Part shown: one piece after another, positions 41,477-62,377 of the stretch | Layout: each line of letters opens with the position of its first letter | Numbering within the stretch: the stretch's first letter is position 1 | Source of the DNA: Acidobacteriota bacterium | GTDB lineage: Bacteria > Acidobacteriota > Terriglobia > Bryobacterales > Bryobacteraceae | DNA: 62,377 bases | Assembly: GCA_016178945.1 (NCBI GenBank) | Contig: JACOSH010000079.1 | Span: forward strand, 1-62,377 | Reading direction: 5' to 3' | Notes under the pieces: generated by a model | Databases searched by the model: none | Told to the model about the DNA's origin: nothing | Seen by the model: the letters and a program-made list of their open reading frames with translations, nothing else | Translations under genes and position numbers: made by a program

Positions 41477-41779
41477 ATGCTCAACACTCTCGGCCCCTTT
41501 TGTTACTTGCAGTTGCTGGATTTCCTGACCACTATCGCCTTCCTGATGCAAGGCGTCCAGGAAGCGAACCCGGTCGTAAGGTGGGCGATCCAGGCGGGCG
41601 GGACTTCGCCTCTAGGCGGCTTGGTGGCCGTGAAGCTGGTAGCGATGGCGCTAGGCCTCTACTGCTGGCATCGCGGCAAGCTGCGCCTGCTGGGGTCGAT
41701 CAACCTGCTGTTTGCGGCCGTGGTTACCTGGAACGTGCTGGCCATCATTCTCCACGCCGCCGGTATCGGTTTCCACTAG
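41477..41779 (+). CDS. DUF5658-like small membrane protein
   Basis: LQLLDFLTTIAFLMQGVQEANPVVRW plus two further TM helices. The start is uncertain (41429 or 41477). Confidence 0.5.
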   Translation: MLNTLGPFCYLQLLDFLTTIAFLMQGVQEANPVVRWAIQAGGTSPLGGLVAVKLVAMALGLYCWHRGKLRLLGSINLLFAAVVTWNVLAIILHAAGIGFH

Positions 41780-45114: not shown

Positions 45115-45120
45115 AACCAC

Positions 45121-50500: not shown

Positions 50501-50728
50501 GTGATGAAGGATACTTACGACTTCAGTAAAGGTAGGCGAGGCCGGGTCGTGGCCGAGTCCCCTCCCGAGCCCGGGAAGGTGAGAATCACCATCCGGTTGG
50601 ATGAAGACGTGGTCGACTATTTCGGCGCGATCGCCGATCGATCTGGCGGCAAGGTCCGCTACCAAACTTTAGTCAATTCGGCTCTGCGCGAATACGTACT
50701 GGCACGCTGGCCTGCCGGGAGAGAGTGA
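50501..50728 (+). CDS. brnA: BrnA-family antitoxin (orphan; no BrnT/DUF497 partner seen)
   Basis: 75 aa. YDFSKGRRG, ITIRLDEDVVDYF and YQTLVNSALREYV match the BrnA antitoxin pattern. Confidence 0.7.
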   Translation: MMKDTYDFSKGRRGRVVAESPPEPGKVRITIRLDEDVVDYFGAIADRSGGKVRYQTLVNSALREYVLARWPAGRE

Positions 50729-50733
50729 TTCCC

Positions 50734-51410
50734 TTACTCGGCGGCCCTGGAAAGTGACTTCACCAGCTCGTATAAGAATGTTTGCCCTTCGAAGAACGAT
50801 GCAACGCTCATCCGCTCGTCGCGCCCGTGAAAGCGGATGTCGTCCCGGTCCATGAAGAAGCCCTGGACACCGTCGGTCGGAATTCCAATCGCACGAAGGT
50901 GCAGGCCGTCGGTCGCTCCCATGACCATAATCGGAACCGCGGGCACACCCGGCCACATTGTGCCGGTGAGCCGGCTGGCCGCTCGAAACACGTCCTCGCG
51001 CACCGGTGACGCCGGACCCCTGCTGACGTCCCCGGAGATGGTGAGGCTCACCTGGCCGTCTCCGATTACCCGATTCAGAGTGCTCCGCACGTATTCAACG
51101 GAATCCTCGGGGAGAACCCGGCAGTTCACAGTCGCCGCCGCCAGTTGTGGCAACGCGTTCATGGCGTGCCCACCCTCGATCTGTGTCGACACGCAGGTGT
51201 GCGCAACGTGGCATTCCAGGCCGGCGATACCCGCGCAACCTGCTGCATCGCCTCCGTGGACCCCCTGCCCGCCGAGGCAAGTTGGTCTTTCGCCGGCCCG
51301 GTCTCAATCTTCGACATGGCCTCGAAGTACGCCCGCGTAACCTCATTGGTCTTCAGCGGAAAACCAAATGTTTGCAGCCGGCCGAGAGCGGCTGCCAGGG
51401 AAACAACCAA
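50734..51410 (-). pseudogene. M20-family metallopeptidase remnant: 5' half missing, 1-nt frameshift near 51198
   Basis: ORF 51159..51410 reads ...LGRLQTFGFPLKTNEVTRAYFEAM...WNATLRT and then goes out of frame. ORF 50734..51192 continues TCVSTQIEGGHAMNALPQLAAATVNCRVLP...FHGRDERMSV, the M20 dimerisation and C-terminal catalytic regions. No N-terminal catalytic half lies upstream. Confidence 0.6.
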
Positions 51411-51633
51411 CGAAGAGTTTCGCTCTCACTGGCATAAAGTTACGCACTCTGATCCGACGAGGCCGCAGGACCCGGTCACTAACGCTCGCATCGCTTGTCA
51501 TTTCCCCATGCGCGCCCATTGCGCCCGATGTCTGTCCCGCTCAAATCACAGCAGATGTTGGTGCTGTCCACGAGAACTTCGGGGCCAGACTCCGCAGCGC
51601 AACCTAACGAGTGTCGACGCAACTCCGTCCCGA

Positions 51634-52095
51634 TCAGGCCGAACTCGCGTCTTCCCCTACCGGTCGGATCTCTAAAACGCCAGCCTCCAGTAGTTTCGCA
51701 ACTATCAACACGCAGCTGCGGTAAACATGGTCCGGCGCGGTACCGTCGATCTCTGACAGAATCATTCCAATAGATCGTTGGCCGTCCAGCCTTGTCAGGA
51801 AGGTCCGCTCCACTGATGAAAGAGTCCAAATCTTCTCGACCTTCTCAGTGCCCGAATGTATGCGGTGAGCAACAAGCGTGCACTCCTGCCACATTACTTC
51901 GTGTTGGGCGGACCATGCGGGTGCCAACGGTTCAATCATCGCGCGATCATAAGTCAACATCTGATCGATGCGCATGAGATGGGCAGTCGAGAATCGGACG
52001 TGCGATGACTGGGTCGTCCGCAAGCGCAAGTATTTCAGAAATTGACGCCGATCCAGCGGTATTCGGTCGCGCATTAAGTCGCGCCCTCCCTTCAC
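51634..52095 (-). CDS. PqqD-family / RiPP-recognition-element-like protein (stand-alone)
   Basis: The C-terminal ~75 aa read KIWTLSSVERTFLTRLDGQRSIGMILSEIDG...VLIVAKLLEAGVLEI. This fits the PqqD winged-helix pattern (xLNxxxxxIWxLLDGxxTxxEI...L...G.L). The N-terminal ~50-70 aa are unassigned and an internal Met start is possible. Confidence 0.55.
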   Translation of the reverse strand: MKGGRDLMRDRIPLDRRQFLKYLRLRTTQSSHVRFSTAHLMRIDQMLTYDRAMIEPLAPAWSAQHEVMWQECTLVAHRIHSGTEKVEKIWTLSSVERTFLTRLDGQRSIGMILSEIDGTAPDHVYRSCVLIVAKLLEAGVLEIRPVGEDASSA

Positions 52096-52100
52096 GTAGA

Positions 52101-53588
52101 TTATGGCAGACGATAGAGCACGATGTTTCCATGCATCGTGGCGACTTCGTCCACGACCGATGTGTCACCCTGAAGCGGGGAGGGGTTAAACAGCCCCAGG
52201 TGATAGTGCGTTACGCCGGGAAGGGGTTGCGATAGATAGCTCGTCGAAACGGAATGGGTGCCAAATGCCTCCCAGATGTATGGCAGAGGACTAACCACCA
52301 CGGCGCTGGATGGAAGTTGCCTGGACCATCGCCGGATGGCTTCGTGCTCACGGTGCGCGCTGGCGTAGAGTGCGTTCAAAGATATCCAGATCTCGCTGCC
52401 ACAAGTTAGCGAATACAGGGAAAACACAAGGAGTAGGGCGGCCCCGAGCCGAGCGCGATAGCGGTGAGTCCTCAACTGCAAGATGGAAGCGCCCGCTACT
52501 GCCAACGCGGCTAAAGGAAACAGCAAGAAACGGCTCCCTCCCGGAGCCCGGTATTGGCCGACCGAGTACAGCGTGAGCAGGCTGAAGTGTACGACCAGCC
52601 AGAGAAGCAACGCCTGCCAAGTCGTACGGAAAGGCCCCGGAATCCAGGCGAGCCAGCAGAGCCCCACGATTGCCGGAAGGACAAACGGCCACGGTCCGAA
52701 CTCGGCAAGAAAAGCGAAGTTCGCACCGGCATTACCCACCGCGAAAGACAGAGAAAAGCGGGATTCCGGGCGCTGCGAAAGATAGAACCGGGCGAGCGTT
52801 GCGGCGCGGGGGACCAGATCAGCCAGCAACGGGAAGCCGGCCAGCAGGAGAATAACGATGGCTCGTCGGCTTTGCACGATCCTGGTGTTTCTCAACAAGA
52901 GCACGAGCGGAATACCCAATAGAACACCGTCCCAGCGTACGTTGACGGCGAAAAGCGCCGCCATGATCGCTACCAGTGCCCAGTCATTCGGGGATCGCGA
53001 TCTGATGGCCTCAGTGGCGGCCCAGAAGCAGAGGACAGCCAGCAAGACCGCAAGGGGTTCCGCCGAGTTTGAACGATGCCAGCCTCCGACTACGGGATGC
53101 AAGCCGTAGGCGGCCCCAGCAACGATACCTGCGGTAATCGAACCGGACAACCGGCAAGCGAACACCGCTACCAGAAGGACAGTCAACGCGCCGCAGCATT
53201 CGTTGAAAGTGGCCAGTCCACGTTCGGGGCCTAAGCAAGCCACGAGCGGGGCGGCGAGCGTTGGGAAACCGGCCGGCCATTTGTAGCGCTCTACATGTTT
53301 AACCTCGCTTGTGAAAGCCGTGGTGATCGAAGCGCCGTAGCCGAAAAGAACGTTGACGGCCATGTTTCCATAGGCATCTTCGTCGAACAATAGACGATGT
53401 TCTTGCGGATAACCATGGATTCGGCAGATCACCAAGCCCCACAGCAGGCTAAGGCCGAGCACCTTCAGGCACCAGCGCTCGCCTGGATTCCAGGAACGGA
53501 TTAGACGAATGCAGAGGACCGTTACCAAGGCCCAAATGATAAGAGCGGAGAGGATCACGCCAAACGAAATCAGGCCAAGCTTGATCAT
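52101..53588 (-). CDS. polytopic GT-C-fold-like membrane protein (ArnT/PMT_2-like glycosyltransferase candidate)
   Basis: About 495 aa from ATG 53588 (ATGA overlap with the upstream stop). It has many TM helices and an early-loop LLFDEDAYGNMAV resembling the DE..Y motif of GT-C enzymes. A ~100-aa C-terminal soluble domain follows. Confidence 0.45.
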   Translation of the reverse strand: MIKLGLISFGVILSALIIWALVTVLCIRLIRSWNPGERWCLKVLGLSLLWGLVICRIHGYPQEHRLLFDEDAYGNMAVNVLFGYGASITTAFTSEVKHVERYKWPAGFPTLAAPLVACLGPERGLATFNECCGALTVLLVAVFACRLSGSITAGIVAGAAYGLHPVVGGWHRSNSAEPLAVLLAVLCFWAATEAIRSRSPNDWALVAIMAALFAVNVRWDGVLLGIPLVLLLRNTRIVQSRRAIVILLLAGFPLLADLVPRAATLARFYLSQRPESRFSLSFAVGNAGANFAFLAEFGPWPFVLPAIVGLCWLAWIPGPFRTTWQALLLWLVVHFSLLTLYSVGQYRAPGGSRFLLFPLAALAVAGASILQLRTHRYRARLGAALLLVFSLYSLTCGSEIWISLNALYASAHREHEAIRRWSRQLPSSAVVVSPLPYIWEAFGTHSVSTSYLSQPLPGVTHYHLGLFNPSPLQGDTSVVDEVATMHGNIVLYRLP

Positions 53589-55327
53589 GCAAGCGGGTCC
53601 CGGGTCCCGCCGAAGAACTGCCGAAACCACACGGAGAGAGAGTAGATGCCCCACGCTAGATAGAGAAGTTCGGGGTCACGGGGGATTTTCGAACAGGCCG
53701 CGAACACTTGGCCGACCGCATCTGGACAGAGAATGCCGAAGTCGCAGAGACCGCTTCGCAAAACCGAAGCGCCACGGCGGGCCACAACGGTCGGGGAAAA
53801 ATGCTCATTGATGGAAATAGAATGTCCAAAGCCGCTCTTAGGCTCATCCACGGGAAACATCGGTGCGCGGCGCAGGAGTAGTGCCTTGAGCAGAGGTTTC
53901 CCGCCGTTCTGCCTGGGACCCAGACGGAGCGAAAGTGGCAGAGCCAGAACGAACTCGATCAGTTTCTTGGACAGAAAGGGGAAGTGCACGGCGCTGGCGC
54001 CATGCACGGCAGAAGTATACACGGACATGATCGAAGGGCGGGCAAAAAGGAGGTATTGAAACAGCAGAGCCGCAGCAGGATCGCCACCGGCCTCTCGCCC
54101 CGCTTGAACGAGTAGCGACTCGGTTGCCGTGGGCAGTACGCAGCGCAGGAACTCGGGCGTATAGAGAAAACGGCGGGCAAACCGGTTTACGGGGCGAAAC
54201 AGACTCGTGGCCAGGAAAGTGCTCCGCCTGGACGATCCGCGCCCATGCTCGCCACCCGATTCCCGGCAGAGTAGGCGACAGAGAACGTCATCGGCGAGGA
54301 AGATCCCATCCGCGCCGCTGCCGCTGACCAGATGTGGCGCCTGGCTGCCCACTCGTTCGCAGAACCAGTCCACGTACACTGCCGGGAAGGAAAATACCGG
54401 GGCGCGCCACCTGCGAGTAACCTTGGAAGGCTCAGCGGCCGCAGAGGGAAACGTCTCGGAGCGAAAGGGAACACCAAGCCACTTGGCACGCTCCCGTGCC
54501 TTTTCCAGTTCCTCGCGCGCCTCGCCACCGAGACTGTGCGCAACCACTCGGCCCGGCTCACAGCACTCTTGCAGCAGCGAGCCAAGCAAGGTGGAATCCA
54601 CACCGCCCGAAAACAAGAGGGCGAAATCGCAACCGCACGAAGCAATCTCCGACACACGATCCCGGAGAATGGCTTCCAGGAAATCCACTGCCGCCGGTTG
54701 GCTAAGTGTGAGTGGGGCCGGGCGCGGCGACCAGATACTGGTTCGCATTGTCGGCTTTAGGTTGTCGACTAGCAGGATGCTGTTCGGCGGAAGCTGGCGG
54801 ATTCCTCGAAATCCGGTCCAGGGAGCAGGGATGTGAAGCAAGCTGAAATAGGCGTGGATCGATTGAGCACAGGGGCGCGTGTCGCCGAAGCGTGCCAGCA
54901 GCGCCGTGAGACTGTCGGAAAAACAGAGAACGCCATCGCGCTCGAAGTAAAACATGGGGCGGCAACCGAAAGTGTCCGCCACTGCCCAAAAGCGGTTTCG
55001 CCGTCGATCGTAGCCTGCAGCGAGGAATTGCCCCTCCGGAAGTGAAAGGACGTTGTGACTATCGGAGTGATAGGCATGGTGAATTTCTCGGGCAGGTGAA
55101 TGTTTTTCTCCGTAGAGGAAGCCACGGACCGCAGTGAAGCCATCTTGGCTCTGATAAGTGGCACACTGCGGCAACCGTCTTTGGATGGCGAGGTAGCCAC
55201 AATCCCCCACCGCCCTCACCTCCCAATCTGGGGCGGTAGGCGGTGGGGGGAGTCTCTCACAGGAGCCTGGTGAGCGGAAACCAACTGCACCAAATAGTCC
55301 TTCCTCGGGCTCAGAGAATCCGTTCAT
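53585..55327 (-). CDS. asparagine synthetase B-family protein lacking the N-terminal Cys nucleophile (ATP-dependent amide-forming enzyme, lasso-cyclase-like)
   Basis: ATG 55327 (ATGA overlap). It starts MNGFSEP, not MCG. RFWAVADTFGCRPMFYF, the PP-loop ALLFSGGVDSTLL and SGSGADGIF are present. Confidence 0.7.
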   Translation of the reverse strand: MNGFSEPEEGLFGAVGFRSPGSCERLPPPPTAPDWEVRAVGDCGYLAIQRRLPQCATYQSQDGFTAVRGFLYGEKHSPAREIHHAYHSDSHNVLSLPEGQFLAAGYDRRRNRFWAVADTFGCRPMFYFERDGVLCFSDSLTALLARFGDTRPCAQSIHAYFSLLHIPAPWTGFRGIRQLPPNSILLVDNLKPTMRTSIWSPRPAPLTLSQPAAVDFLEAILRDRVSEIASCGCDFALLFSGGVDSTLLGSLLQECCEPGRVVAHSLGGEAREELEKARERAKWLGVPFRSETFPSAAAEPSKVTRRWRAPVFSFPAVYVDWFCERVGSQAPHLVSGSGADGIFLADDVLCRLLCRESGGEHGRGSSRRSTFLATSLFRPVNRFARRFLYTPEFLRCVLPTATESLLVQAGREAGGDPAAALLFQYLLFARPSIMSVYTSAVHGASAVHFPFLSKKLIEFVLALPLSLRLGPRQNGGKPLLKALLLRRAPMFPVDEPKSGFGHSISINEHFSPTVVARRGASVLRSGLCDFGILCPDAVGQVFAACSKIPRDPELLYLAWGIYSLSVWFRQFFGGTRDPLA

Positions 55328-56370
55328 ACACCGGTGGCCAGTTGAAGCTTCAAGCGATAAGACAAGCAACCACCAACGCACTCTCCGGAGCCTCGGAGTC
55401 CACATGACTGGCAGGCGTCGAACAGGTAACTGTGAGCCTGTGATCGAAAGTGGACAGCCAGTGACGCTGCCAGCGGATCTCTAGAAGGGTACCGGATCTC
55501 ATCCAAGGAAACGCGCTTTCCCGCCGACAGCGGCAGGCAGTGCGCCACGCTGAGATCAGGCCTAACGTCCAGGAGCGGATGGCAAACCGACTTAAACAAG
55601 ATGCCACAATCGGAGAGTTCTCCGAGACCCCGGCGGATCGCGGCCTCCGCCGTCTCGCCGTCACGCTGCTGCGCCGCGAACATACACGCCACGAAACCAC
55701 AGTCGCACAGGAGCTTGATTCCATGTTGCTTCAGGTCGATGCCCTGGCGTTTCAATGACTGGCCGATCGCATGGAACCGCTCTCGATCGGCAAAACGGCT
55801 TGCGTGATTCAGCATCGGATGGCTCAGGCTGATTCGGATGACTTTGTTCAGGTGGAATTCCCGAATCAGGTTCGCGTAAGGCAAGAGGTCGAGCCCGTCT
55901 CCACAGGCTGTCACCGACAGGGTGCAGGCGGACTCCATCCAGCGAAGATTCTCGCGGATGGCCTTGATCTCCGCAGTTGGCTGGCCTGGGCGCAGGTAGG
56001 CGTTGACCAGGAAGAACAGTCTGCGGCCTAGCGGGGAATAAAGAATGTCGCGAAGTTCTTCGCTGCGGGACCCGCCAAATACGCCATTCGTGTTCACGCC
56101 TACATCCACATCGAGCGCCAACGCTTCGCGAAGGAATTGAGCGATCAGCGGGTGCTGTGTGGGCTCTCCGCCGAGCAAGGAAATGCGCGGGGACCGCCAG
56201 ACTTCGATTGCGAGATGAAGCAGTTCTGCATAGCGCTCGGCCGTGAGGAAGCTTCGCTCGCTGGAACCCATAACCGGCAAGGTCCCGGAGGCCCTGATCT
56301 CTGGAACGCTCTGCTCGAAGCAGAAATCGCATTCGCGCCGGTTGCACCAGGTAGTGACGAGGATGTTCAT
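55324..56370 (-). CDS. radical SAM enzyme with non-canonical CX4CX2C motif and SPASM-like C-terminus
   Basis: It begins MNILVTTWCNRRECDFCFEQ; I verified the DNA as TGC AAC CGG CGC GAA TGC GAT TTC TGC. The SLLGGEPTQHP GGE motif is present. The C-terminal Cys clusters are CDCGFVAC, CHP...C and CQSCGLRGSGECVGGC. Confidence 0.7.
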   Translation of the reverse strand: MNILVTTWCNRRECDFCFEQSVPEIRASGTLPVMGSSERSFLTAERYAELLHLAIEVWRSPRISLLGGEPTQHPLIAQFLREALALDVDVGVNTNGVFGGSRSEELRDILYSPLGRRLFFLVNAYLRPGQPTAEIKAIRENLRWMESACTLSVTACGDGLDLLPYANLIREFHLNKVIRISLSHPMLNHASRFADRERFHAIGQSLKRQGIDLKQHGIKLLCDCGFVACMFAAQQRDGETAEAAIRRGLGELSDCGILFKSVCHPLLDVRPDLSVAHCLPLSAGKRVSLDEIRYPSRDPLAASLAVHFRSQAHSYLFDACQSCGLRGSGECVGGCLSYRLKLQLATGV

Positions 56371-58028
56371 TGTGCGACACCTGCCAGAGATTGCCCAATC
56401 GAACCCTCCAACCGGGCGGCTGCGTCAGAGTCATTCGTATCGAGCCAGATGCCGAGAAAGACGTTATGCCAAAACAAGTCAGCGGCCTCGCCGGATTCAC
56501 GTGCGGCGGGTGGATTGCTGGCGGTTGTCACCTTAAGGCCAGCGGCCCGGAGGCGCTCAAGCGCTCTTCCGGAGAACGGAGTGAGCAACTCGGCGAACCC
56601 GCGAAACCCGTGCCAGTTCTCGCCGAACCCTTCTTTCGGACGGCTCAAGATGGCTTCCGGAATATCACGCTGGAATGCCTGGCGCAAGACGTTCTTGGTG
56701 AAACCGTCGAAGGCACCCGGGGTGATAAGTGTGTCCCAGGGTAAAGCAAAGGCCGCTGCGACGACCACCGGATTCAGCAAGGGACAGCGGACATCTACAC
56801 CGAACGGAGCTCCCAACCGTGTTCCGGCCAAGAAGTAGGGAAAGCACGTTAACTCCTGCTCGACGGTGGCGTCAACCATGTCGTTAAGTTCTCCCGAGTG
56901 GGGCTCCTTCGGCAGGCAGGCGAGCGCTTGTTCAACCACTTCTTCAGGCGGTTCCCATCCAGTAACAGCCGCAACGTGCCCCAGACGCCAAGTCAGAAGT
57001 TCGCGCCTCAGCGCGGGAAGTTCGTGGCAGCCCTCCGTCTGGCGCTGAACGTATCGCCGTAGCATGAACATCTGGTGCCGGTAACCGAGGAAGAGTTCGT
57101 CACCGCCCTCGCCAAGCAGAATGCGGTCCGTCATGCCGACGGTCCGGCGGAGTAGCAAGTATAGGTAGAAAAGCGGGAGAACGCAGACCGGTTCTTGTAG
57201 AGCCAAGTGGAAATGGGGAAGCAGAGCGAACTCGCGCTCCTCGAAATCGAATGAAATCAGCTCCGATCGGCTGCTTCTGCATAATGTTGCTAGCCCCTGG
57301 TCCTCACCTGAGCCAATGCGTCTGAGCGTAACGGCGCGGACCGGCGGTCCATCTTTGGGCAGGGCCGCCGCCACCACCGCCGAGTCCAGGCCGCCGGACA
57401 GCGCGATGGCAGGACGTGAGGCGGACCGCAACTCTTCACGCACGGCGTGGAAAATACTTCCGCGAAGCGAGTCCTCGATCTGCTGCCAACGCTGCGTACG
57501 CCGAATCCCTTTAGGGATTCGTGTATGGCGCGCAACGCTAACACGATCTGCCCTGAGGAGGACGTGATTGCCCGGCGCCGGCTGCTGGATTTCCTTGTAG
57601 AGAGTGAGGGGCGGCACGACGAAGCGGAACAAATAGTACCGCAGAAGCCCCGCGGGGTCTATGTGGAACGAAACGGGAACTTGCTTGAGCAGTGTGTGCA
57701 GGCCGTTGGAGCAGTAGAGAGTCTCGCCGGAGACACAATAGAAAAGAGGGACGAAGCCGAAAGAGTCGCGAGCCAGGAAGATGCCAGCGCCGCGCCGATC
57801 GGCGACGACGCACGCCCAGGCTCCGTGCAACTCCGAGAAACTGGCGGCACCCGTGCGCAAATATCGGTCAAGTAGAGTCCTGGCGTCAGCCGCCCCGCAA
57901 GGCGTGCCCAGGAGCAAGACTTCGATGCCATGCTCGCTCGCAGTCGAGATCGCCGGATCAGCCTCATCGTGCCTGAGCAAACTCAGGCCGAGGGGGGTGC
58001 CGGCGGGAATCGTTACTGTGGCCAGCAC
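56367..58028 (-). CDS. second asparagine synthetase B-family protein lacking the N-terminal Cys nucleophile
   Basis: GTG start 58028 (MLATVTIPAG). GIFLARDSFGFVPLFYC and the PP-loop AIALSGGLDSAVV are present, and the synthetase domain is full length. Confidence 0.7.
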   Translation of the reverse strand: MLATVTIPAGTPLGLSLLRHDEADPAISTASEHGIEVLLLGTPCGAADARTLLDRYLRTGAASFSELHGAWACVVADRRGAGIFLARDSFGFVPLFYCVSGETLYCSNGLHTLLKQVPVSFHIDPAGLLRYYLFRFVVPPLTLYKEIQQPAPGNHVLLRADRVSVARHTRIPKGIRRTQRWQQIEDSLRGSIFHAVREELRSASRPAIALSGGLDSAVVAAALPKDGPPVRAVTLRRIGSGEDQGLATLCRSSRSELISFDFEEREFALLPHFHLALQEPVCVLPLFYLYLLLRRTVGMTDRILLGEGGDELFLGYRHQMFMLRRYVQRQTEGCHELPALRRELLTWRLGHVAAVTGWEPPEEVVEQALACLPKEPHSGELNDMVDATVEQELTCFPYFLAGTRLGAPFGVDVRCPLLNPVVVAAAFALPWDTLITPGAFDGFTKNVLRQAFQRDIPEAILSRPKEGFGENWHGFRGFAELLTPFSGRALERLRAAGLKVTTASNPPAARESGEAADLFWHNVFLGIWLDTNDSDAAARLEGSIGQSLAGVAQ

Positions 58029-58037
58029 GGGTCCACT

Positions 58038-59519
58038 TCAAGCCATCCGAATCTGTACCAACTTGGTGGAGGGCATTGGCGAGTCCTGTGGAATCCATCC
58101 AGTCGAGGGCTCCGTGACGTCGCCAAAACCGTAGAGGGAGAAGATCTGCGCGCGAGTCAGTTCCCGAATAACAAAGCAGCGATTCCGATTGACAGTATCT
58201 TTTGGGTCCCCGGTGGCAGAGAGTTTGGCCGCGCAATCGCCCGCGCAATGGTAGCGGGCGAAGCAGCCCTGGCAGGGCGCCTTTTCCGCCGCAGTCCATT
58301 GTGCGGCGGCTCGAATCGTATCCATATTCACCCCGAACCGGCCCGTGGCGGGATCTAAGGCCCCGATATCGAAGTGGTGAATGCGCGGATCGTCCTTGGC
58401 GAAGACTTCGTAACAGGAAGTAACGCGGCCATCCTGGGTCACATTGAAGGCTCCGGAAACCGCCTCGCAAAACCTGTTTGTGATCTGGTCAGCTCGTGCG
58501 CCGGCATACTTGAGACGGCGACCATGCTGCCTGGCGATCAAGCGCCCCTGCAGAAAGCCATCGACAAACATCGCCGGATCGACTTCGCGCTCGTCGGTTT
58601 CGATGGCCCGCCCTTCAGGGAAACTGGGCTCTAGCATGAGATCTGCTGTCTGCGAGACTTTGCAAAGATACTCAACGACCTCGGGAATCCGCCCGGCCGA
58701 TCGCCGCGTGATTGTACAGCGGATTCCATAAGAGACACCCAGTTCGTCAAGGATACGCAGCGAGCGCTCGACGATGCGGGAAGAGGAGTTTCTCTCGTCT
58801 TCCATCCCTTCGCCCTTAATGAGGCTATCCGCACGCTCGTGTCCCCCCGGTGAGGACAACGGCCTCTGCGCATCCTGGATATCGGGTGGACCGTCAAGAC
58901 TCACCGTGATGTTGCGCAGTTTGGGAGCCAGCCAGCGCAGACGCTTCTCAGCGATAATGCCGTTCATACCGGCTTCGAAGTCGCACGCAAGGTCCTCCTC
59001 CAAACAGCGGCGCTCGGCGTACTCGATGCATTTCGTCAGGATCGGCCAAGCGAGAGTGGGCTCCCCATCACCATGGAAGATGACCGTGATCTTCAATGAG
59101 TTCGTAGCGATTGCGTTGTCTATTACGAAGTCCAACGCCGCCTTGGCCGTTTCCCATGGCATCACCGAGTCGGTGTCGCCGCCGCGGGCGTAGCAGTACG
59201 AGCAGTGGAGATTACAGTTCCCGGTCAGAAACAGGGTCACCGTCGTGGGCTGGTACGCCCCACCAGTCGACTCGGCTACGCCCGGGGGAGCATCCGGCAG
59301 TTCCTCGAGCAGCCCCATCCGCTCCACGGCTTCCAGGAACGGCTTCTGCCTTAGCCCGGCATCCAGTCCGCCGTTCGCACCCGCGAGGGCACGGAGGATC
59401 TTCTCACCCGCAGAGTTCACGCTGAAGGCGAGCCGCCGGAGCGGCGCGTAAGCGATCTGTTCCGCAGACGTTCTGCCAGGAATAAAGAAAACGGGTGTCC
59501 GTAGCGCCGGCTGCATCAT
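58038..59519 (-). CDS. radical SAM/SPASM peptide-maturase-type enzyme with N-terminal RRE-like domain
   Basis: 493 aa with AGGAG 5 nt upstream of the start. The N-terminal ~90 aa (SVNSAGEKILRALAG...FLEAVERMGLLEE) are PqqD/RRE-like. FLTGNCNLHCSYCY (CX3CX2C), HGDGEPTL and the SPASM motif CQGCFARYHCAGDC are present. Confidence 0.8.
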   Translation of the reverse strand: MMQPALRTPVFFIPGRTSAEQIAYAPLRRLAFSVNSAGEKILRALAGANGGLDAGLRQKPFLEAVERMGLLEELPDAPPGVAESTGGAYQPTTVTLFLTGNCNLHCSYCYARGGDTDSVMPWETAKAALDFVIDNAIATNSLKITVIFHGDGEPTLAWPILTKCIEYAERRCLEEDLACDFEAGMNGIIAEKRLRWLAPKLRNITVSLDGPPDIQDAQRPLSSPGGHERADSLIKGEGMEDERNSSSRIVERSLRILDELGVSYGIRCTITRRSAGRIPEVVEYLCKVSQTADLMLEPSFPEGRAIETDEREVDPAMFVDGFLQGRLIARQHGRRLKYAGARADQITNRFCEAVSGAFNVTQDGRVTSCYEVFAKDDPRIHHFDIGALDPATGRFGVNMDTIRAAAQWTAAEKAPCQGCFARYHCAGDCAAKLSATGDPKDTVNRNRCFVIRELTRAQIFSLYGFGDVTEPSTGWIPQDSPMPSTKLVQIRMA

Positions 59520-59549
59520 CGTGCTCCTATCACCAAAGTTGTCGTGCTC

Positions 59550-61115
59550 CTAATACCAGTACGAAAGCGTGTATCCGCCCCGTCCGCCTTGCGTATTGCA
59601 CGTGCATACTGTGTTGCACGTACAAACTGTGACCCATGTGGGCGACAGCGGGGCGCTCACGCAGTTGCAGATGCAGACAGCACCAGCGGGCAGGGGCGTT
59701 CCGCACGGAACCGTCTTCGTGGTCCACCGTTCAAAGGCCGAATCCCACACCCAGGTGATTCTCTCGTTGTGGGTACTGGTGACAGAAACGGAATTGCACG
59801 TGCATACGCAATCCTGGAAAGGGAGTTTTGCGTCTGCGGGCTTGGACTCTTTGAAGCTGCTGGCGGCTGGGTCTACGACGATTGCGGTGGCGATCTGACG
59901 GCCCCGCTCCGCAGTTCCGACGATAACGCGGCCCTCGGCGCTGCCCCACGCGTAAACGTGGGGTTTTGAGGCACATGACACACAGGTGACGGAAGCGACC
60001 CTGGAGTCGGGGGTCTCCCACTTGAACGGCGAAGGCTGGAACTCGTGGACAATCACTATGTCTCTCCCAACGCCATCGGCGGCCTTCTTCTTCGCCATCA
60101 CCACAGATTCGAGGCCGGAAGAAAAGGCGCGCAATGTCTCCACTATGTCCAGCCGCTCGCCCTGTTTGTCCGGGCGTCCGGAAGGAAACGCGAACAGGTC
60201 GAGCGTGCCCTCTGTCTTACGTAAGTAGCCGACCTTCGTACCGTTGGCCGAGACGATCAACTCGTCGAACGTCGCCACCGGATTCGGAAACGCGGTCACT
60301 TTCGGGACGTCGGTGTCGACTAACAGCACGGCCTTGGCCCCCGCGACGTAGGCGACCCTGGGCGATTCGGGGACGGTACCGGTTGACCGCACCTCCCACG
60401 CGCCACCGGCCACGCCAAGCTGGGACCGAATCGATGCACCAACCTTCAGTATCGCCGTTCGCTTCCCCGTCGCCGAATTCAACAGATGCAGATCGCCGTT
60501 CCTGTCTATCTTGACGATGCGCAGCCCATCGTGGGAAAAGGCGCCAGTCTTCCAGTCCTTTGCACCTGTTTCAAACAGCCGCTTCTGGCCAGCCATGTCG
60601 AAGCAGAGCAGTTTGCCTTTTCGTGTGAGAACAGCAAGACGTTCACCCTTGCCCCAGAAGAAATCGGTTACCATCTCCGAGGGATTAATACGCACAGGGG
60701 CGCGCCGCGCGCGCGTTCCTTTCACCTCCGGCGGAGGGGCCGGAGCTTTGTACGGGAAATCCAGTGGCTTCGAAAGATGGCCGGACTCCCATAATGTCAA
60801 CCGCCCGGCTCCGGCGAGGGCGGCGAGCCAGCGATGGTCATGGGAGAATTCGACCCTTTTCACCGCGCCCGTGACGGCAAGATTGCAGACCACGTAGGAG
60901 ATGGCGCCGCGACGTTGGGACGCGGCCTCTACCTCTACTGCGGACCCGGCAGCACCGATTCCCAGCGCGGCGGCTGCCTTTGCTAGGTCGCGGCGGCTTA
61001 CCGGACGTCCAGTCGCCGGGTCGGGCTCATGCAACTCAGAAACCTGACCGATGGCGGGCTCGTCGGAGTCCGCTTCTAGTTTGTTCGGAACGGAATCCTC
61101 ATTATTGTCCGACAT
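59550..61115 (-). CDS. Tat-signal beta-propeller-like protein with C-terminal cysteine-ladder tail (candidate maturation substrate)
   Basis: 521 aa with a strong SD (AAGGAGG). An acidic N-terminus is followed by SRRDLAKAAAALGIGAAGSAV (twin-arginine motif plus h-region). WD40-like repeats follow (VEFSHDHRWLAALAGAGRLTLWE; GAFSHDGLRIVKIDRNGDLHLLN). The last 87 aa read DCVCTCNS...VCICNCVS...VCTCNTVCTCNTQGGRGGYTLSYWY. Confidence 0.7.
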   Translation of the reverse strand: MSDNNEDSVPNKLEADSDEPAIGQVSELHEPDPATGRPVSRRDLAKAAAALGIGAAGSAVEVEAASQRRGAISYVVCNLAVTGAVKRVEFSHDHRWLAALAGAGRLTLWESGHLSKPLDFPYKAPAPPPEVKGTRARRAPVRINPSEMVTDFFWGKGERLAVLTRKGKLLCFDMAGQKRLFETGAKDWKTGAFSHDGLRIVKIDRNGDLHLLNSATGKRTAILKVGASIRSQLGVAGGAWEVRSTGTVPESPRVAYVAGAKAVLLVDTDVPKVTAFPNPVATFDELIVSANGTKVGYLRKTEGTLDLFAFPSGRPDKQGERLDIVETLRAFSSGLESVVMAKKKAADGVGRDIVIVHEFQPSPFKWETPDSRVASVTCVSCASKPHVYAWGSAEGRVIVGTAERGRQIATAIVVDPAASSFKESKPADAKLPFQDCVCTCNSVSVTSTHNERITWVWDSAFERWTTKTVPCGTPLPAGAVCICNCVSAPLSPTWVTVCTCNTVCTCNTQGGRGGYTLSYWY

Positions 61116-61195
61116 GAGGTGCCTCCTTGTTTGTCACCAACAGATACACCGTGGTTGTGTGACCAGGTTCTTGCCGCAATATTCCGCTCTGAAGG

Positions 61196-62377
61196 TCATC
61201 CATGGGCCACCTCCATTGCGGTATTACCGTGCTCCACCATTCTTAGTTCGGATTCTGGGATGTAAGTGATTCGTTTGCTTCCCCGTGCCCTCAGACAGGC
61301 TTCGACAAACTCGAAAGGTTCTTCCCGCAGAAGCGCGTCCTCGGCCAAGCGTCGGATCTCAGCCCGCGGGTAGTCTGTGTTCGCCGCCAAGTCGTACAGG
61401 CACTCCCAAAACAGCGTCTTGGGATTCTTGCCTTGCTGCATGAAGCGGTTCCAGTTGAATCGCTCCTCTTTGGCTCCTTCCACTTGGTCGGGATGAATGA
61501 TTTCACCTTCCAACGCTCGCCGTGTGGTTAGGTACCCAGGAAAGTAGAGGAGCGAGTACGTGTTCAGGACGTAAGGCCTGGGTATCGAAAGGAGCAGTTC
61601 GAGCACTTCCCGCCGGTCGCTGTCAGCGGAGAACGGATCGTCGATGATGAGGTCAAAAATGTTGTCGAAACCATACTGCTTGCCGAGACGCGCAACACAC
61701 AGGATGTCCTCGACTTTGTAAGGGCGGTCGTAGTACTCTCGGGCTACTTCGGGTGAGCCCTGAATACCCATGGACAACCATTTTACCCCGGCCCGCGCAA
61801 GATGGGGGATGACGCGCTCATTATTGATCCGCGGATCGGTCTGGCAGAAAAACGGGAGACCGATTTCCTGCCGGTACGCTTCGGCGAACTCGCTGACCCA
61901 CTGGTGGTCGGTCGTGAAGACCTCGTCGTAAAAGTAGATCTTGCGGAGTTCGGGGTTGCGGCGCGTGACTTCCTGCAGTTCCGCGATCACGCTCGCAACG
62001 GTACGGCGCCGGAGGAAGTTTCCCAAGCCCTTGTAGACCTGGCGCTGAACCGGATTGACACAGAACTCGCACCTATAGGGGCAACCGCGCGACGCCATCA
62101 TCGAGTACCAGTGCATTGAGCCCTGGACTTGCGTGTAGCGGGAGTTCAGATAGATGTGGTGGCCGTCGTTCTCAAAGTCGGGCCAAGTGATCGAATCCAG
62201 GTCCTGGACAAGCGGAAGCATCTCGTTCCGCAGAACTTCGTCACCCTGTAGAACTGGCAGGATCGTTCCAGGGTCACTGGCTGCGGCGCGGCGGCTCCAC
62301 ACGTTTGGACAGGTCTCAAGAGGTTGACCATGCTCCAAGCGTCGAAGAAAGATCGGCAACGCTTCCTCACACTCCCC
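61196..62377 (-). CDS. B12-binding-domain (class B) radical SAM enzyme (partial; N-terminus beyond window end)
   Basis: The frame is open to the window edge (GECEEALPIFLRR...). MMASRGCPYRCEFC (CX3CX2C), IYFYDEVF and LSMGIQGSPE are present. This layout is typical of B12-rSAM enzymes, whose cobalamin domain would lie upstream. Confidence 0.7.
   Translation of the reverse strand, partial: GECEEALPIFLRRLEHGQPLETCPNVWSRRAAASDPGTILPVLQGDEVLRNEMLPLVQDLDSITWPDFENDGHHIYLNSRYTQVQGSMHWYSMMASRGCPYRCEFCVNPVQRQVYKGLGNFLRRRTVASVIAELQEVTRRNPELRKIYFYDEVFTTDHQWVSEFAEAYRQEIGLPFFCQTDPRINNERVIPHLARAGVKWLSMGIQGSPEVAREYYDRPYKVEDILCVARLGKQYGFDNIFDLIIDDPFSADSDRREVLELLLSIPRPYVLNTYSLLYFPGYLTTRRALEGEIIHPDQVEGAKEERFNWNRFMQQGKNPKTLFWECLYDLAANTDYPRAEIRRLAEDALLREEPFEFVEACLRARGSKRITYIPESELRMVEHGNTAMEVAHG

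What the first reader, a model, noticed from the sequence alone, without database searches (positions are those of the whole stretch)
51634..62377. Eight-gene translationally coupled radical-SAM / AsnB-like / GT-C operon on a lower-GC island: candidate undescribed protein- or peptide-maturation system
What the sequence shows: eight co-directional minus-strand genes. There are ATGA start/stop overlaps at 56367-56370, 55324-55327 and 53585-53588, and gaps of only 5-80 nt elsewhere. The gene order is as follows: (1) a B12-binding radical SAM (CPYRCEFC), whose 5' end lies outside the window; (2) a Tat-signal propeller protein with a Cys-ladder tail; (3) an RRE-fused radical SAM/SPASM (CNLHCSYC; CQGCFARYHCAGDC); (4) an AsnB-like enzyme; (5) a radical SAM with CX4CX2C and a SPASM-like end; (6) a second AsnB-like enzyme; (7) a GT-C-like polytopic membrane protein; (8) a stand-alone PqqD-like protein. 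Established knowledge: PqqD/RRE domains plus SPASM radical SAM enzymes are hallmarks of peptide or protein maturation (PQQ, mycofactocin, sacti-/ranthipeptides, QhpD acting on QhpC). Cys-less AsnB homologues adenylate carboxylates to form amide or isopeptide bonds (lasso cyclases). GT-C enzymes act on the periplasmic face using lipid-linked donors. Inference: I cannot fit the set to a known class. A lasso system would need a B2 protease and a short precursor. Sacti-/ranthipeptide loci lack AsnB and GT-C genes. QHNDH loci carry heme, subtilisin and exporter genes. PQQ and mycofactocin loci have different gene sets. A working model is cytoplasmic radical crosslinking or methylation plus ATP-dependent amidation or cyclisation of the Cys-rich tail, then Tat export and periplasmic glycosylation.
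Basis: partly seen in the sequence, partly recalled or inferred. Interest (0 to 1): 0.9.

Follow-up and report, generated by a model that had tools for sequence, protein, structure and literature searches.

The report
Radical-SAM operon maturing Cys-ladder protein
This is a conserved operon, ten genes long once the neighbouring contig is added, that most likely cross-links, methylates, amidates and glycosylates the cysteine-repeat tail of an exported WD40 protein. It is a rare offshoot of a widespread multi-radical-SAM system that no database or paper I could search describes.

Summary
There are eight co-directional minus-strand genes, three ATGA overlaps, the stated Cys motifs and a lower-GC island.

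A contig 100% identical to the window extends it. It shows two further upstream genes: a GT2 resembling polyprenyl-phosphate sugar synthases, and a 916-aa B12-rSAM/rSAM fusion. It also supplies the missing B12-binding domain of gene 1.

All eight genes recur in the same order in an independent metagenome contig at 35-62% amino-acid identity.

The Cys-ladder tail proved to be a distinct module:
- It consists of a variable number of C-x-C-[D/N]-x-[V/I] hexads.
- It was found in 17 genomes, whose record titles name at least eight phylum-level lineages.
- It almost always sits on proteins with a conserved N-terminal motif, a Tat signal and a WD40 propeller.
- It lies beside orthologues of gene 3 (PapB/CteB-like rSAM/SPASM), gene 5, further rSAM groups and the gene-8 family.

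The window clade has lost two SPASM paralogues. It has gained B12-rSAMs, two Cys-less AsnB-like ligases and a GT2/GT-C pair.

No Pfam or NCBIfam model covers the tail or the gene-8 family. No curated cut-off is reached by any of the rSAMs, and no paper was found.

The chemistry (thioethers, methylation, amide formation, glycosylation) is inferred, not shown.

The parts
61196..62377 (-). g1: class-B (B12-binding) radical SAM enzyme. Its 3' 393 codons lie in the window; the full protein is 524 aa.
   Evidence: Pfam Radical_SAM at 58.4 bits and the CPYRCEFC motif. The identical contig L105 supplies the N-terminus, which matches PF02310 B12-binding at 51.5 bits (cut-off 32.1). Orthologues: 62% identity in L101 and 59% in L001.
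59550..61115 (-). g2: 521-aa candidate substrate. It has an N-terminal conserved motif, a Tat signal, a divergent WD40 propeller and a Cys-ladder tail.
   Evidence: Only 3 homologues were found by the word-indexed search of 5.8 billion proteins, and about 6 representatives in the profile search of 1.84 billion. In that profile search the propeller region matched tens of thousands of WD40 proteins. In the AF2 model the blades are confident for residues about 150-320 and the tail has pLDDT below 40. The gene is syntenic with g1 and g3 in every relative.
61017..61052 (-). g2 residues 22-33 (IGQVSELHEPDP): a conserved motif upstream of the Tat RR. Proposed leader or recognition sequence.
   Evidence: I22, G23, E27, L28, E30 and P33 are invariant in alignment A1. 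The wider family has an equivalent motif, [KR]PE[IV]Y[AG][LV], at the same distance before the RR.
60942..60998 (-). g2 residues 40-58 (SRRDLAKAAAALGIGAAGS): twin-arginine signal motif plus an Ala/Gly-rich h-region.
   Evidence: Read directly from the sequence. R41 and R42 are invariant. NCBIfam TIGR01409 (TAT_signal_seq) passes its cut-off in the homologue L005a (26.9 bits against 16.7). It was not reported for g2 itself.
59553..59843 (-). g2 residues 425-521: the Cys-ladder tail. Sequence: DCVCTCNSV...PCGTPLPAGAVCICNCV...CTCNTVCTCNTQ...YWY-COOH.
   Evidence: This is the best-conserved part of the protein. The same module is found in 17 genomes. Its repeat unit is C-x-C-[DN]-x-[VI] in variable copy number. 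It matches no Pfam or NCBIfam model.
58038..59519 (-). g3: radical SAM/SPASM maturase of orthogroup R1, with a conserved N-terminal extension of about 90 aa.
   Evidence: CNLHCSYC motif plus a seven-Cys SPASM pattern. Best NCBIfam hits are the nif11 maturase, PapB, QhpD and the SCIFF maturase, all far below their cut-offs. The closest solved structure is CteB, 5WGG, at E 9e-17. Full-length orthologues at 29-38% identity lie beside tail genes in 13 of the 17 genome loci.
56367..58028 (-). g4: AsnB-like ATP-dependent amide ligase 1. It has no N-terminal Cys nucleophile.
   Evidence: PF00733 at 107.7 bits; SGGLDS at residue 211; the protein starts MLATV. PDB matches are asparagine synthetases and beta-lactam synthetase. 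Close homologues (43-48% identity) occur only in syntenic operons.
55324..56370 (-). g5: radical SAM of orthogroup R0, with a CX4CX2C motif and a C-terminal CxxC...CxGGC motif.
   Evidence: PF04055 at 33.1 bits. The CNRR[EQ]C[DS]FC motif is conserved in L101 and L104, whereas R0 elsewhere has CX3CX2C. R0 orthologues are present in 13 of the 17 genome loci.
53585..55327 (-). g6: AsnB-like ATP-dependent amide ligase 2. It has no N-terminal Cys nucleophile.
   Evidence: PF00733 at 61.9 bits; SGGVDS at residue 240. Orthologues: 37% identity in L101 and 42% in L104.
52101..53588 (-). g7: GT-C-like polytopic membrane glycosyltransferase.
   Evidence: PMT_2 at 28.3 bits against a cut-off of 26.1. A hydropathy scan gives 10 overlapping hydrophobic windows (about nine distinct segments), and there is an FDEDAY motif. 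Orthologues: 36% identity in L101 and 39% in L005, where the gene follows a GT2 and two tail precursors.
51634..52074 (-). g8: 146-aa protein of family c2. It has an N-terminal RRxF(F/L)K motif without a hydrophobic core, and a C-terminal beta3-alpha3 domain that resembles an RRE or PqqD.
   Evidence: An HMM built from 8 c2 proteins of other phyla finds g8 at E 4e-6. The L101 orthologue is 37% identical. The AF2 secondary-structure order is beta-beta-beta-alpha-alpha-alpha. Links to PqqD or RRE are only weak.
51370..51633 (.). Probable downstream edge of the lower-GC island.
   Evidence: Two independent assemblies (L105, L106) that are 100% identical to the window both end at window position 51370. 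GC rises beyond about 51 kb. A truncated M20 peptidase gene abuts this region.

Best explanation
The operon is a maturation pathway for a whole protein, built like a RiPP pathway. Its substrate is the C-terminal Cys-ladder domain of g2.

Shown by comparative evidence:
- The tail module, a conserved motif in front of a Tat signal, an R1 rSAM/SPASM (g3), an R0 rSAM (g5) and a small c2 protein (g8) form a core. That core recurs across bacterial phyla.
- The window carries a rare derived version. It lacks the R2 and R3 SPASM paralogues. It has gained two B12-rSAM proteins, two Cys-less AsnB-like ligases and a GT2/GT-C pair.

Inferred mechanism:
1. In the cytoplasm, g8 and/or the N-terminal domain of g3 bind the conserved motif upstream of the twin arginines.
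2. g3 is PapB/CteB/QhpD-like. Together with g5 and the R0-like half of the 916-aa protein, it makes Cys-to-carbon thioether (or related radical) cross-links within the C-x-C-[D/N]-x-[V/I] hexads.
3. The B12-rSAM domains methylate the tail; the conserved Trp residues are one candidate target.
4. The two AsnB-like enzymes adenylate carboxylates and form amide bonds. The candidates are Asp side chains or the invariant ...YWY-COOH terminus.
5. The cross-linked, folded protein is exported by Tat.
6. On the periplasmic side, GT-C (g7) glycosylates it from a polyprenyl-phosphate sugar made by the upstream GT2.
For: Operon unity.
- There are three ATGA overlaps.
- Synteny of g1-g8 is complete in L101/L102 and of g3-g8 in L103, at 35-62% identity; it is partial in L104 and L001.

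Substrate identity.
- A search seeded only with the g2 family found the tail in 17 genomes.
- 14 of the 17 loci carry R1 and/or R0 orthologues within 10 kb, and 16 carry at least one related rSAM. Usually there is one each of R0-R3.
- L005 encodes two 162- and 178-aa precursors that have the leader, the Tat signal and the tail but no propeller. The tail is therefore the common element.
- Variable hexad copy number is typical of repeat-type RiPP cores.

Chemistry lead.
- R1, R2 and R3 align over the full length to PapB, a Cys-Asp thioether maturase. The SCIFF maturase and QhpD come next.
- CteB is the closest solved structure to g3.

Tat export.
- The SRRDLAK motif is invariant in the clade.
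- TIGR01409 passes its cut-off in a family member.

Leader.
- A conserved motif lies 10-20 residues before the RR in nearly all members.

g8.
- It belongs to the co-occurring c2 family.
- Its predicted fold order is beta3-alpha3.

Glycosylation.
- The GT2's best matches are AglJ, ArnC, Dol-P-hexose transferase and PpgS.
- The GT2/GT-C pair also follows the tail genes in the distant locus L005, at 49% and 39% identity.

Methylation.
- B12-binding plus rSAM domains are confirmed in g1.
- The 916-aa protein's best hit is the TsrM-type tryptophan methyltransferase, at 7.6e-35.

Amide formation.
- Both AsnB-like proteins keep SGGxDS and lack Cys2.
- They are related to beta-lactam synthetase.
Against: - No chemistry was observed. 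Every modification is inferred from family resemblance at scores far below the curated cut-offs.
- The RRE in g3 was not detectable.
- The PqqD or RRE assignment of g8 rests on three non-significant hints.
- The AF2 model gives no confident fold for the tail.
- The AsnB-like and B12-rSAM genes occur only in the window clade. Their target could therefore be something other than the tail.
- The Pfam support for GT-C is marginal, at 28.3 bits against a cut-off of 26.1.
- No protease or dedicated exporter is present, so the final product and its biological role are unknown.
Confidence: 0.6

Rival explanations
1. Only the core genes (g2, g3, g5, g8) act on the protein. The clade-specific genes (GT2, GT-C, the two AsnB-like enzymes and the B12-rSAMs) instead build or modify a glycolipid, polysaccharide or small molecule that happens to be co-transcribed.
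For: The AsnB-like proteins give their second-best NCBIfam hit to the XrtA/PEP-CTERM EPS amidotransferase. The B12-rSAM hits include lipid- and hopanoid-modifying enzymes. These genes are absent from 16 of the 17 distant loci.
Against: The genes are interleaved with the core genes and translationally coupled to them: g4-g5-g6-g7 are joined by ATGA overlaps. The order is conserved in L101 and L104. The GT2/GT-C pair re-appears directly after tail precursors in the unrelated locus L005. No exosortase, flippase, polymerase or other EPS gene is in the operon. The EPS amidotransferase score is 91 bits against a cut-off of 816.9.
Confidence: 0.15
2. The Cys-repeat tail is mainly a metal-binding or disulfide-ladder domain, like a metallothionein or a beta-solenoid. 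The rSAM enzymes would install or assemble a metal or cofactor centre rather than many thioethers. In this reading the protein is a periplasmic redox or metal-handling protein exported by Tat because it carries a cofactor.
For: CxC repeats and Tat export are both typical of cofactor- or metal-bearing proteins (established knowledge). The R0 group's best hits are MoaA and the tungsten-cofactor oxidoreductase rSAM maturase. The tail has no confident predicted fold.
Against: R1-R3 are full-length relatives of the thioether-forming peptide maturases PapB, SCIFF maturase and QhpD, not of cluster-assembly proteins. The D/N position of the hexad is conserved, as it would be for a cross-link acceptor. 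Leader-like motifs and RRE-like partners point to peptide modification.
Confidence: 0.12
3. The true substrate is a small unannotated peptide. The WD40/Cys protein would be a scaffold, receptor or immunity partner.
For: Most known rSAM/SPASM maturases act on short peptides (established knowledge). The region beyond the GT2 gene is not fully known.
Against: Intergenic gaps in the operon are at most 80 nt, so they leave no room for a precursor gene. The tail, not any small ORF, is what co-occurs with the rSAMs across phyla. In L005 the tail is itself carried on short, precursor-like proteins.
Confidence: 0.05

Closest known systems
Ranthipeptide and SCIFF maturation (PapB/PapA, CteB/CteA)
   Same: An rSAM/SPASM enzyme is encoded next to a Cys-rich, repeat-type ribosomal substrate with Asp/Asn near each Cys. 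PapB is the best full-length NCBIfam match of R1-R3. CteB is the closest solved structure to g3.
   Different: - All scores are far below the family cut-offs, for example 91.8 against 340.
- The substrate is the C-terminal domain of a ~500-aa Tat-exported WD40 protein, not a 40-50-aa peptide.
- Four to six rSAM domains take part per locus.
- There is no peptidase or ABC exporter.
- The window clade adds B12-rSAMs, AsnB-like ligases and a GT2/GT-C pair.
Quinohemoprotein amine dehydrogenase maturation (QhpD acting on QhpC)
   Same: A SPASM rSAM makes multiple Cys-Asp/Glu thioethers in a Cys-containing polypeptide. That polypeptide ends up in the periplasm associated with a beta-propeller (established knowledge). 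QhpD is among the top hits of g3 at 1.2e-24.
   Different: - The QhpD cut-off is not reached (86.9 against 453).
- The operon has no dihaem QhpA, no QhpE subtilisin, no QhpF exporter and no QhpG.
- The propeller and the Cys domain are fused here, and the protein carries its own Tat signal.
Lasso-peptide cyclase and beta-lactam synthetase branch of the AsnB family
   Same: g4 and g6 keep the PP-loop SGGxDS motif and lack the Cys2 glutaminase nucleophile. Enzymes of this kind adenylate a carboxylate and form an intramolecular or peptide amide.
   Different: - The lasso cyclase model scores 70.8 and 44.1 bits against a cut-off of 525.
- There is no B2 protease and no short precursor.
- There are two paralogous ligases.
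- The Tat signal would be removed only after export, so an N-terminal amine nucleophile is unlikely.
Polyprenyl-phosphate sugar synthase plus GT-C transferase pairs (ArnC/ArnT, GtrB/GtrC-type, Ppm1/PMT, AglJ)
   Same: A GT2 with best hits to AglJ, ArnC and Dol-P-hexose transferase lies upstream. A PMT_2-type membrane protein with about nine hydrophobic segments lies downstream in the same operon.
   Different: - No curated cut-off is reached.
- The proposed acceptor is an rSAM-modified Cys-repeat protein domain.
- The sugar is unknown.
His-Xaa-Ser (HxsABCD) and other multi-rSAM systems found by phylogenetic profiling
   Same: A SPASM rSAM is paired with a non-SPASM rSAM around a repeat-containing target. 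Weak hits to HxsB and HxsC were obtained.
   Different: - The target motif is different.
- Far more rSAM domains are involved.
- The substrate is a Tat-WD40 fusion.
- None of the Hxs cut-offs are met.

Membership tests
rSAM/SPASM peptide maturases (PapB, CteB, QhpD type) | CX3CX2C radical-SAM cluster motif in a Radical_SAM domain | tested here: met
   g3 has CNLHCSYC at residue 102. PF04055 scores 37.5 bits against a cut-off of 29.5.
rSAM/SPASM peptide maturases (PapB, CteB, QhpD type) | C-terminal seven-Cys SPASM motif (C...Gx4C ... CX2CX5CX3C ... C) | tested here: met
   Read directly: C351, C369 (as DGRVTSC), C416, C419, C425, C429 and C448. The Pfam SPASM model was not among hits at E<=0.01, so this rests on the motif alone.
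rSAM/SPASM peptide maturases (PapB, CteB, QhpD type) | Score above the curated cut-off of a named equivalog | tested here: not met
   The best hits of g3 all fall short: nif11 maturase 103.1 against 518.7, PapB 91.8 against 340, QhpD 86.9 against 453, SCIFF maturase 86.4 against 425. The same holds for R1-R3 of other phyla.
rSAM/SPASM peptide maturases (PapB, CteB, QhpD type) | N-terminal RiPP recognition element (RRE) | tested here: inconclusive
   A conserved ~90-aa N-terminal extension with the motif IYxPL..LAFxxNxA is present in all R1 proteins. Its profile gave no PDB hit and no significant hhalign match to the c2 family.
rSAM/SPASM peptide maturases (PapB, CteB, QhpD type) | Thioether (or other radical) cross-link formed on the adjacent Cys-rich substrate | not testable with these tools
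   This needs in vivo or in vitro reconstitution and mass spectrometry. Only the genomic association is shown.
Lasso peptide biosynthesis | Lasso cyclase equivalog (NF033535) | tested here: not met
   g4 scores 70.8 bits and g6 44.1 bits against a cut-off of 525.
Lasso peptide biosynthesis | B2 transglutaminase-like leader protease and a short precursor peptide | tested here: not met
   None of the ten operon proteins has a protease family hit. Gaps of at most 80 nt leave no room for a precursor gene.
QHNDH maturation system | QhpD equivalog together with QhpA (dihaem), QhpE (subtilisin) and QhpF (exporter) | tested here: not met
   The QhpD model scores 86.9 against 453. No haem, subtilisin or ABC gene is in the operon.
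Class B (cobalamin-dependent) radical SAM enzymes | N-terminal B12-binding domain followed by a Radical_SAM domain | tested here: met
   The full-length g1 from the 100%-identical contig L105 matches PF02310 at 51.5 bits (cut-off 32.1) and PF04055 at 58.9 bits. The 916-aa protein matches PF02310 at 43.5 bits and has two Radical_SAM stretches. The methyl-transfer activity itself was not tested.
GT-C glycosyltransferase with a lipid-linked donor | Polytopic membrane protein matching a GT-C family model | tested here: met
   PMT_2 scores 28.3 bits against 26.1, which is marginal. A hydropathy scan gives 10 overlapping hydrophobic windows (about nine distinct segments), and there is an FDEDAY acidic motif near the N-terminus. 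No PDB sequence hit was found.
GT-C glycosyltransferase with a lipid-linked donor | Partner polyprenyl-phosphate sugar synthase (GT2) in the same locus | tested here: met
   The GT2 in L105 matches PF00535 at 88.1 bits. Its best NCBIfam hits are AglJ, ArnC, Dol-P-hexose transferase and PpgS, all below their cut-offs. The pair recurs in L005.
PqqD / stand-alone RRE proteins (g8) | Significant match to PF05402, or a winged-helix beta3-alpha3 fold matching a solved RRE | tested here: inconclusive
   g8 has no Pfam hit. 3 of 9 c2 members hit PqqD weakly, best E 0.0057. The profile against the PDB gives PqqD 3G2B at E 0.15 and 5SXY at E 0.35, both collinear. The AF2 model has beta-beta-beta-alpha-alpha-alpha at residues 58-130 with pLDDT about 70-83. 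Foldseek's best RRE is TbiB1 at E 0.57.
Tat-exported proteins | S/T-R-R-x-F-L-K motif, then a moderately hydrophobic h-region, near the N-terminus | tested here: met
   g2 has S40-R-R-D-L-A-K followed by AAAALGIGAAGSAV. The RR is invariant. TIGR01409 passes its cut-off in the homologue L005a but was not reported for g2. Export itself was not tested.
XrtA/PEP-CTERM exopolysaccharide locus | EPS amidotransferase equivalog (TIGR03108) together with exosortase and EPS genes | tested here: not met
   g4 scores 91 and g6 59 against a cut-off of 816.9. No exosortase or EPS assembly gene is in the operon or its relatives.

The most novel reading that the evidence does not exclude
This would be a new class of protein-scale RiPP.
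- A variable array of C-x-C-[D/N]-x-[V/I] hexads at the C-terminus of Tat-exported WD40 proteins is converted by four to six radical-SAM domains into a poly-cross-linked 'ladder'.
- In this clade the ladder is also methylated, amidated and glycosylated.
- The n-region of the Tat signal doubles as the RiPP leader.
- The small RR-motif/RRE-like protein (g8, family c2) couples completion of modification to Tat export. That would be a proofreading principle not yet described for RiPP-type chemistry.
- The mature tail might be a protein-derived redox or metal cofactor. This would parallel the propeller plus cross-linked small-subunit design of QHNDH and MADH.
Probability: 0.25. Interest if true: 0.9.

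Novelty: new variant of a known kind. Interest (0 to 1): 0.75.

Why it matters
- The finding defines a substrate family and enzyme set that current curated libraries do not name. The family is spread over many phyla, including Acidobacteriota, Desulfobacterota, Bacteroidota, Chloroflexota, Nitrospirota, Pseudomonadota and Spirochaetota.
- It would extend RiPP-type radical chemistry from short peptides to whole exported proteins.
- It offers several uncharacterised rSAM groups. One has a conserved CX4CX2C cluster motif, and some proteins fuse two or three rSAM domains.
- It offers two orphan Cys-less AsnB-like ligases with a defined candidate substrate.
- It gives a concrete test case for how the cell coordinates cytoplasmic post-translational cross-linking with Tat export and periplasmic glycosylation.
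- The short propeller-less precursors in L005 and the compact window operon are practical starting points for heterologous reconstitution.

Tried and rejected
- Exact look-up of g3 found nothing. The public gene call starts one codon later (492 aa).
- A metagenome scan seeded with g4 found no relative.
- The second metagenome scan, with the g3 alignment, used generic rSAM motifs. It returned mostly unrelated SPASM enzymes; only L021 is R1-like.
- The exhaustive profile search with the four g2 relatives was swamped by generic WD40 proteins (93,461 hits). It could not count tail-bearing proteins. It did show that the propeller is WD40-like and that the window clade is rare.
- AF2 of g2 with a four-sequence alignment left the tail at pLDDT below 40, so no fold search was run on it.
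- Foldseek on the g8 model gave no significant match.
- The profile of the g3 N-terminal domain gave no PDB hit and no hhalign match to c2.
- No terminator-like or promoter-like site was found downstream of g8.
- No tRNA gene marks the island.
- The lasso-peptide, QHNDH and exosortase/EPS readings were rejected on the membership tests above.
- The 33-aa ORF that one pipeline called in the g1-g2 gap was judged spurious.
- The eLife 2020 conflict-systems paper and the Latescibacterota paper turned up by keyword searches concern unrelated systems.

Full report
**1. The observation**

The region 51634-62377 holds eight co-directional minus-strand ORFs:

| Gene | Coordinates | Note |
|---|---|---|
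| g1 | 61196-62377 | cut by the window end |
| g2 | 59550-61115 | 521 aa |
| g3 | 58038-59519 | 493 aa |
| g4 | 56367-58028 | 553 aa |
| g5 | 55324-56370 | 348 aa |
| g6 | 53585-55327 | 580 aa from the coupled start |
| g7 | 52101-53588 | 495 aa |
| g8 | 51634-52095 | more likely starts at ATG 52074, after GGGAGGG; 146 aa |

- ATGA overlaps are read directly at all three stated positions.
- The stated Cys motifs are all present: CPYRCEFC, CNLHCSYC, CQGCFARYHCAGDC and CX4CX2C (as CNRRECDFC).
- g3 has a full seven-Cys SPASM pattern.
- GC is 0.59-0.61 across the operon, against 0.62-0.69 in the rest of the window.
- Pfam and NCBIfam confirm the broad family assignments:
  - Radical_SAM in g1, g3 and g5;
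  - Asn_synthase plus a truncated GATase domain in g4 and g6;
  - PMT_2 in g7, just above its cut-off.
- g2 and g8 match nothing, and no curated equivalog cut-off is reached by any protein.
- Both AsnB-like proteins keep the PP-loop SGGxDS and lack the N-terminal Cys nucleophile.

**2. The operon is larger than the window shows**

- A public contig (L105, Logan SRR12113411) is 100% identical to window 51370-62377 over 11,008 nt. It continues 4,137 nt upstream.
- It supplies the missing N-terminus of g1. That N-terminus matches the B12-binding domain PF02310 above its cut-off.
- It also adds two more co-directional genes.
  - One is a 916-aa protein with a B12-binding/rSAM half and a second rSAM half related to g5. 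The best hit of the first half is the TsrM-type tryptophan methyltransferase, at 7.6e-35.
  - The other is a 265-aa GT2. Its best matches are AglJ, ArnC, dolichyl-phosphate hexose transferase and PpgS, all of which are polyprenyl-phosphate sugar synthases.
- The unit therefore has ten genes and five radical-SAM domains.

**3. The gene set is a conserved unit**

- g4 has only five close homologues, at 43-48% identity. Their contigs carry the same operon.
- L101 (157 kb) and L102 (100 kb) have, in order: the double-rSAM protein, g1, a 188-aa HEAT-repeat ORF, g2, g3, g4, g5, g6, g7 and g8. Identities are 35-62%. L103 (25 kb) starts inside g2 and shows g2 (partial) to g8.
- L104 shows g3-g4-g5-g6. 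L001 shows GT2, the double rSAM, g1, HEAT, g2 and g3.
- The unusual CX4CX2C motif of g5 is conserved in this clade.
The AsnB, GT-C and B12-rSAM genes travel with the Cys-ladder protein, not with an exopolysaccharide locus.

**4. The Cys-ladder tail is the key**

- g2 has three full-length homologues in the word-indexed search. It has about six representatives in an exhaustive profile search of 1.84 billion proteins.
- The best-conserved part is the last ~90 residues.
- A genome scan seeded with this family returned 17 loci. By record title they come from Pseudomonadota, Flexilinea, Desulfobacula, Desulfobulbus, Acidobacteriota, Bryobacterales, Nitrospiraceae, Bacteroidales, Paludibacter, Cloacimonas, Methylococcaceae, Fimbriimonadaceae and Leptospirales.
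- Their proteins share one architecture:
  - a conserved N-terminal motif, [KR]PE[IV]Y[AG][LV] (IGQVSELHE in the window clade);
  - a twin-arginine signal 10-20 residues later;
  - a canonical WD40 propeller;
  - a tail that starts PCG[ST]P[LI]PxGAxCxC[ND]CV, continues with 2-12 C-x-C-[D/N]-x-[V/I] hexads, and ends (H)YW[YRH]P[NT]-COOH.
- The window clade ends YWY-COOH instead.
- L005 encodes two 162- and 178-aa versions with leader, Tat signal and tail but no propeller. The tail is therefore the functional common element.
- Neither Pfam nor NCBIfam has a model for the tail.

**5. What co-occurs with the tail**

- Local BLAST and clustering of the 10-kb flanks show four rSAM orthogroups:

| Group | Window gene | Presence |
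|---|---|---|
| R0 | g5 | present in most loci, usually once each |
| R1 | g3 | present in most loci, usually once each |
| R2 | none | present in most loci, usually once each |
| R3 | none | present in most loci, usually once each |

- Some proteins fuse two or three rSAM domains. An HxsC-like rSAM is present in three loci.
- A ~153-aa family, c2, is present in eight loci and a ~90-aa family, c3, in six or seven.
- Window g8 belongs to c2. An HMM built without it finds it at E 4e-6 over 100 residues, including the invariant N-terminal RR.
- 14 of the 17 tail loci have R1 and/or R0 within 10 kb, and 16 have at least one related rSAM. The one locus without any (L015) is truncated by a contig end.
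- R1-R3 align over the full length to PapB, the Cys-Asp thioether maturase of ranthipeptides. The SCIFF maturase and QhpD come next, but at roughly a third of the required score.
- The closest solved structure to g3 is CteB. g5 and g7 have no PDB relative by sequence.

**6. What is special about the window clade**

- It keeps R1 (g3), R0 (g5, plus the R0-like half of the 916-aa protein) and c2 (g8).
- It lacks R2, R3 and c3.
- It has gained two B12-rSAM proteins, two Cys-less AsnB-like ligases and the GT2/GT-C pair.
- No B12-binding domain was detected in the eight large rSAM fusion proteins of other loci that were scanned.
- The GT2/GT-C pair is not unique to this clade. In L005 a GT2 (49% identity) and a GT-C (39% identity) directly follow the two propeller-less precursors. 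This ties the pair to the tail rather than to the propeller.

**7. Mechanism**

Shown:
- operon unity and conservation;
- the tail as the conserved partner of the rSAM set;
- a Tat-type signal;
- B12-binding/rSAM architecture;
- the PP-loop retained and the glutaminase nucleophile lost in both AsnB-like proteins;
- a donor-synthase/GT-C pairing.

Inferred:
- leader recognition by g8 and/or the g3 N-terminal domain;
- thioether-type cross-linking of the hexads by g3, g5 and the R0-like domain;
- C-methylation by the B12-rSAMs;
- ATP-dependent amide formation by g4 and g6, on Asp side chains or on the invariant C-terminal carboxylate;
- Tat export of the pre-cross-linked protein;
- periplasmic glycosylation by g7.

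It is suggestive that the AsnB-bearing clade ends in YWY-COOH while AsnB-free relatives end in YW[YRH]P[NT]-COOH. This is a correlation only.

**8. Points that stayed open**

- The PqqD or RRE nature of g8 is supported only by three weak, concordant hints:
  - PqqD Pfam hits in 3 of 9 members;
  - collinear sub-threshold hits to two PqqD structures;
  - a beta3-alpha3 AF2 topology, with TbiB1 as the best RRE in Foldseek at E 0.57.
- An RRE in g3 could not be demonstrated.
- The tail has no confident predicted structure.
- The c2 N-terminus carries an RRxFFK motif like a Tat signal but has no hydrophobic core. Its meaning is unexplained. A role in coupling maturation to Tat targeting is speculation.

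**9. Comparison with known systems and novelty**

- The system works most like ranthipeptide/SCIFF and QhpD-type thioether maturation. To this it adds class-B rSAM methylation, lasso-cyclase- or beta-lactam-synthetase-like amide formation, and ArnC/ArnT-like glycosylation.
- It fails the membership tests for each named family (see the table of tests).
- No curated model and no paper in the searchable library describes the tail, the c2 family or the gene set.
- I class it as a new variant of a known kind: rSAM/SPASM maturation of a Cys-rich ribosomal product. It has unusual features: a whole exported WD40 protein as substrate, a Tat signal n-region as probable leader, and five rSAM domains plus ligases and glycosyltransferases.

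**10. Context**

- The island abuts a truncated M20 peptidase gene and a BrnA antitoxin gene.
- Two independent assemblies break at window position 51370.
- In L101 the operon is followed by IS66 transposase genes.
- Together with the GC drop, this suggests horizontal acquisition.

Noticed in passing
window 50734-51410 (minus strand): A truncated M20-family peptidase gene lies here. Only the end of the dimerisation domain and the C-terminus remain in ORF 50734-51192 (Pfam M20_dimer, profile positions 59-101). A second short ORF in another frame lies just upstream. The gene abuts the lower-GC island and may mark its insertion site.
   Followed up: partly
window 51370: Two independent public assemblies (L105, L106) that are 100% identical to the window both end exactly at this position, about 260 nt downstream of g8. 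This may be a strain-variable junction or the island boundary.
   Followed up: partly
window 50501-50728 (plus strand): A 75-aa BrnA-type antitoxin gene (Pfam BrnA_antitoxin, 43.7 bits) lies next to the island edge. No obvious BrnT toxin partner was looked for.
   Followed up: no
window 52026-52074 (g8 N-terminus); c2 genes in L005-L009, L012, L018, L019: All c2 proteins, g8 included, begin with an invariant RR inside an RRxF(F/L)K motif. It looks like a Tat consensus but is followed by an amphipathic, not a hydrophobic, segment. It could be a vestigial signal or a signal mimic. Its function is unexplained.
   Followed up: partly
window 61116-61195 (g1-g2 gap); L001 9426-9989, L003 318-887, L101 6370-6936: All close relatives carry a ~190-aa HEAT-repeat ORF, with an N-terminal hydrophobic segment, between g1 and g2. 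The window has only an 80-nt gap there, so that gene has been lost or was never gained.
   Followed up: partly
window 56320-56346 (g5 residues 9-17): The radical-SAM cluster motif of g5 is CX4CX2C (CNRRECDFC). This one-residue insertion is conserved in L101 and L104, while R0 orthologues in other phyla have the canonical CX3CX2C.
   Followed up: yes
window 59550-59564 (g2 C-terminus) compared with L004-L020: The AsnB-bearing clade ends ...YWY-COOH. AsnB-free relatives end ...YW[YRH]P[NT]-COOH. This may be a clue to what the AsnB-like ligases act on.
   Followed up: partly
L101 16333-20119: In the syntenic peat-metagenome contig the operon is followed directly by IS66-family genes (TnpB, DDE transposase) and another DDE transposase. 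This fits mobility of the operon.
   Followed up: no
L007 5934-10682; also L011, L013, L016, L019: There are giant multi-domain radical-SAM proteins. One is 1,582 aa with three Radical_SAM domains. They fuse R3, R0 and a further rSAM domain in the wider family. The extra domain was not classified.
   Followed up: partly
window 41776-45120 (minus strand): A 1,114-aa outer-membrane protein with CarboxypepD_reg and a TonB-dependent-like beta-barrel (OMP_b-brl_4, 667 bits). From memory, this architecture is common in Acidobacteriota, which hints at the host lineage. Taxonomy was not tested.
   Followed up: no
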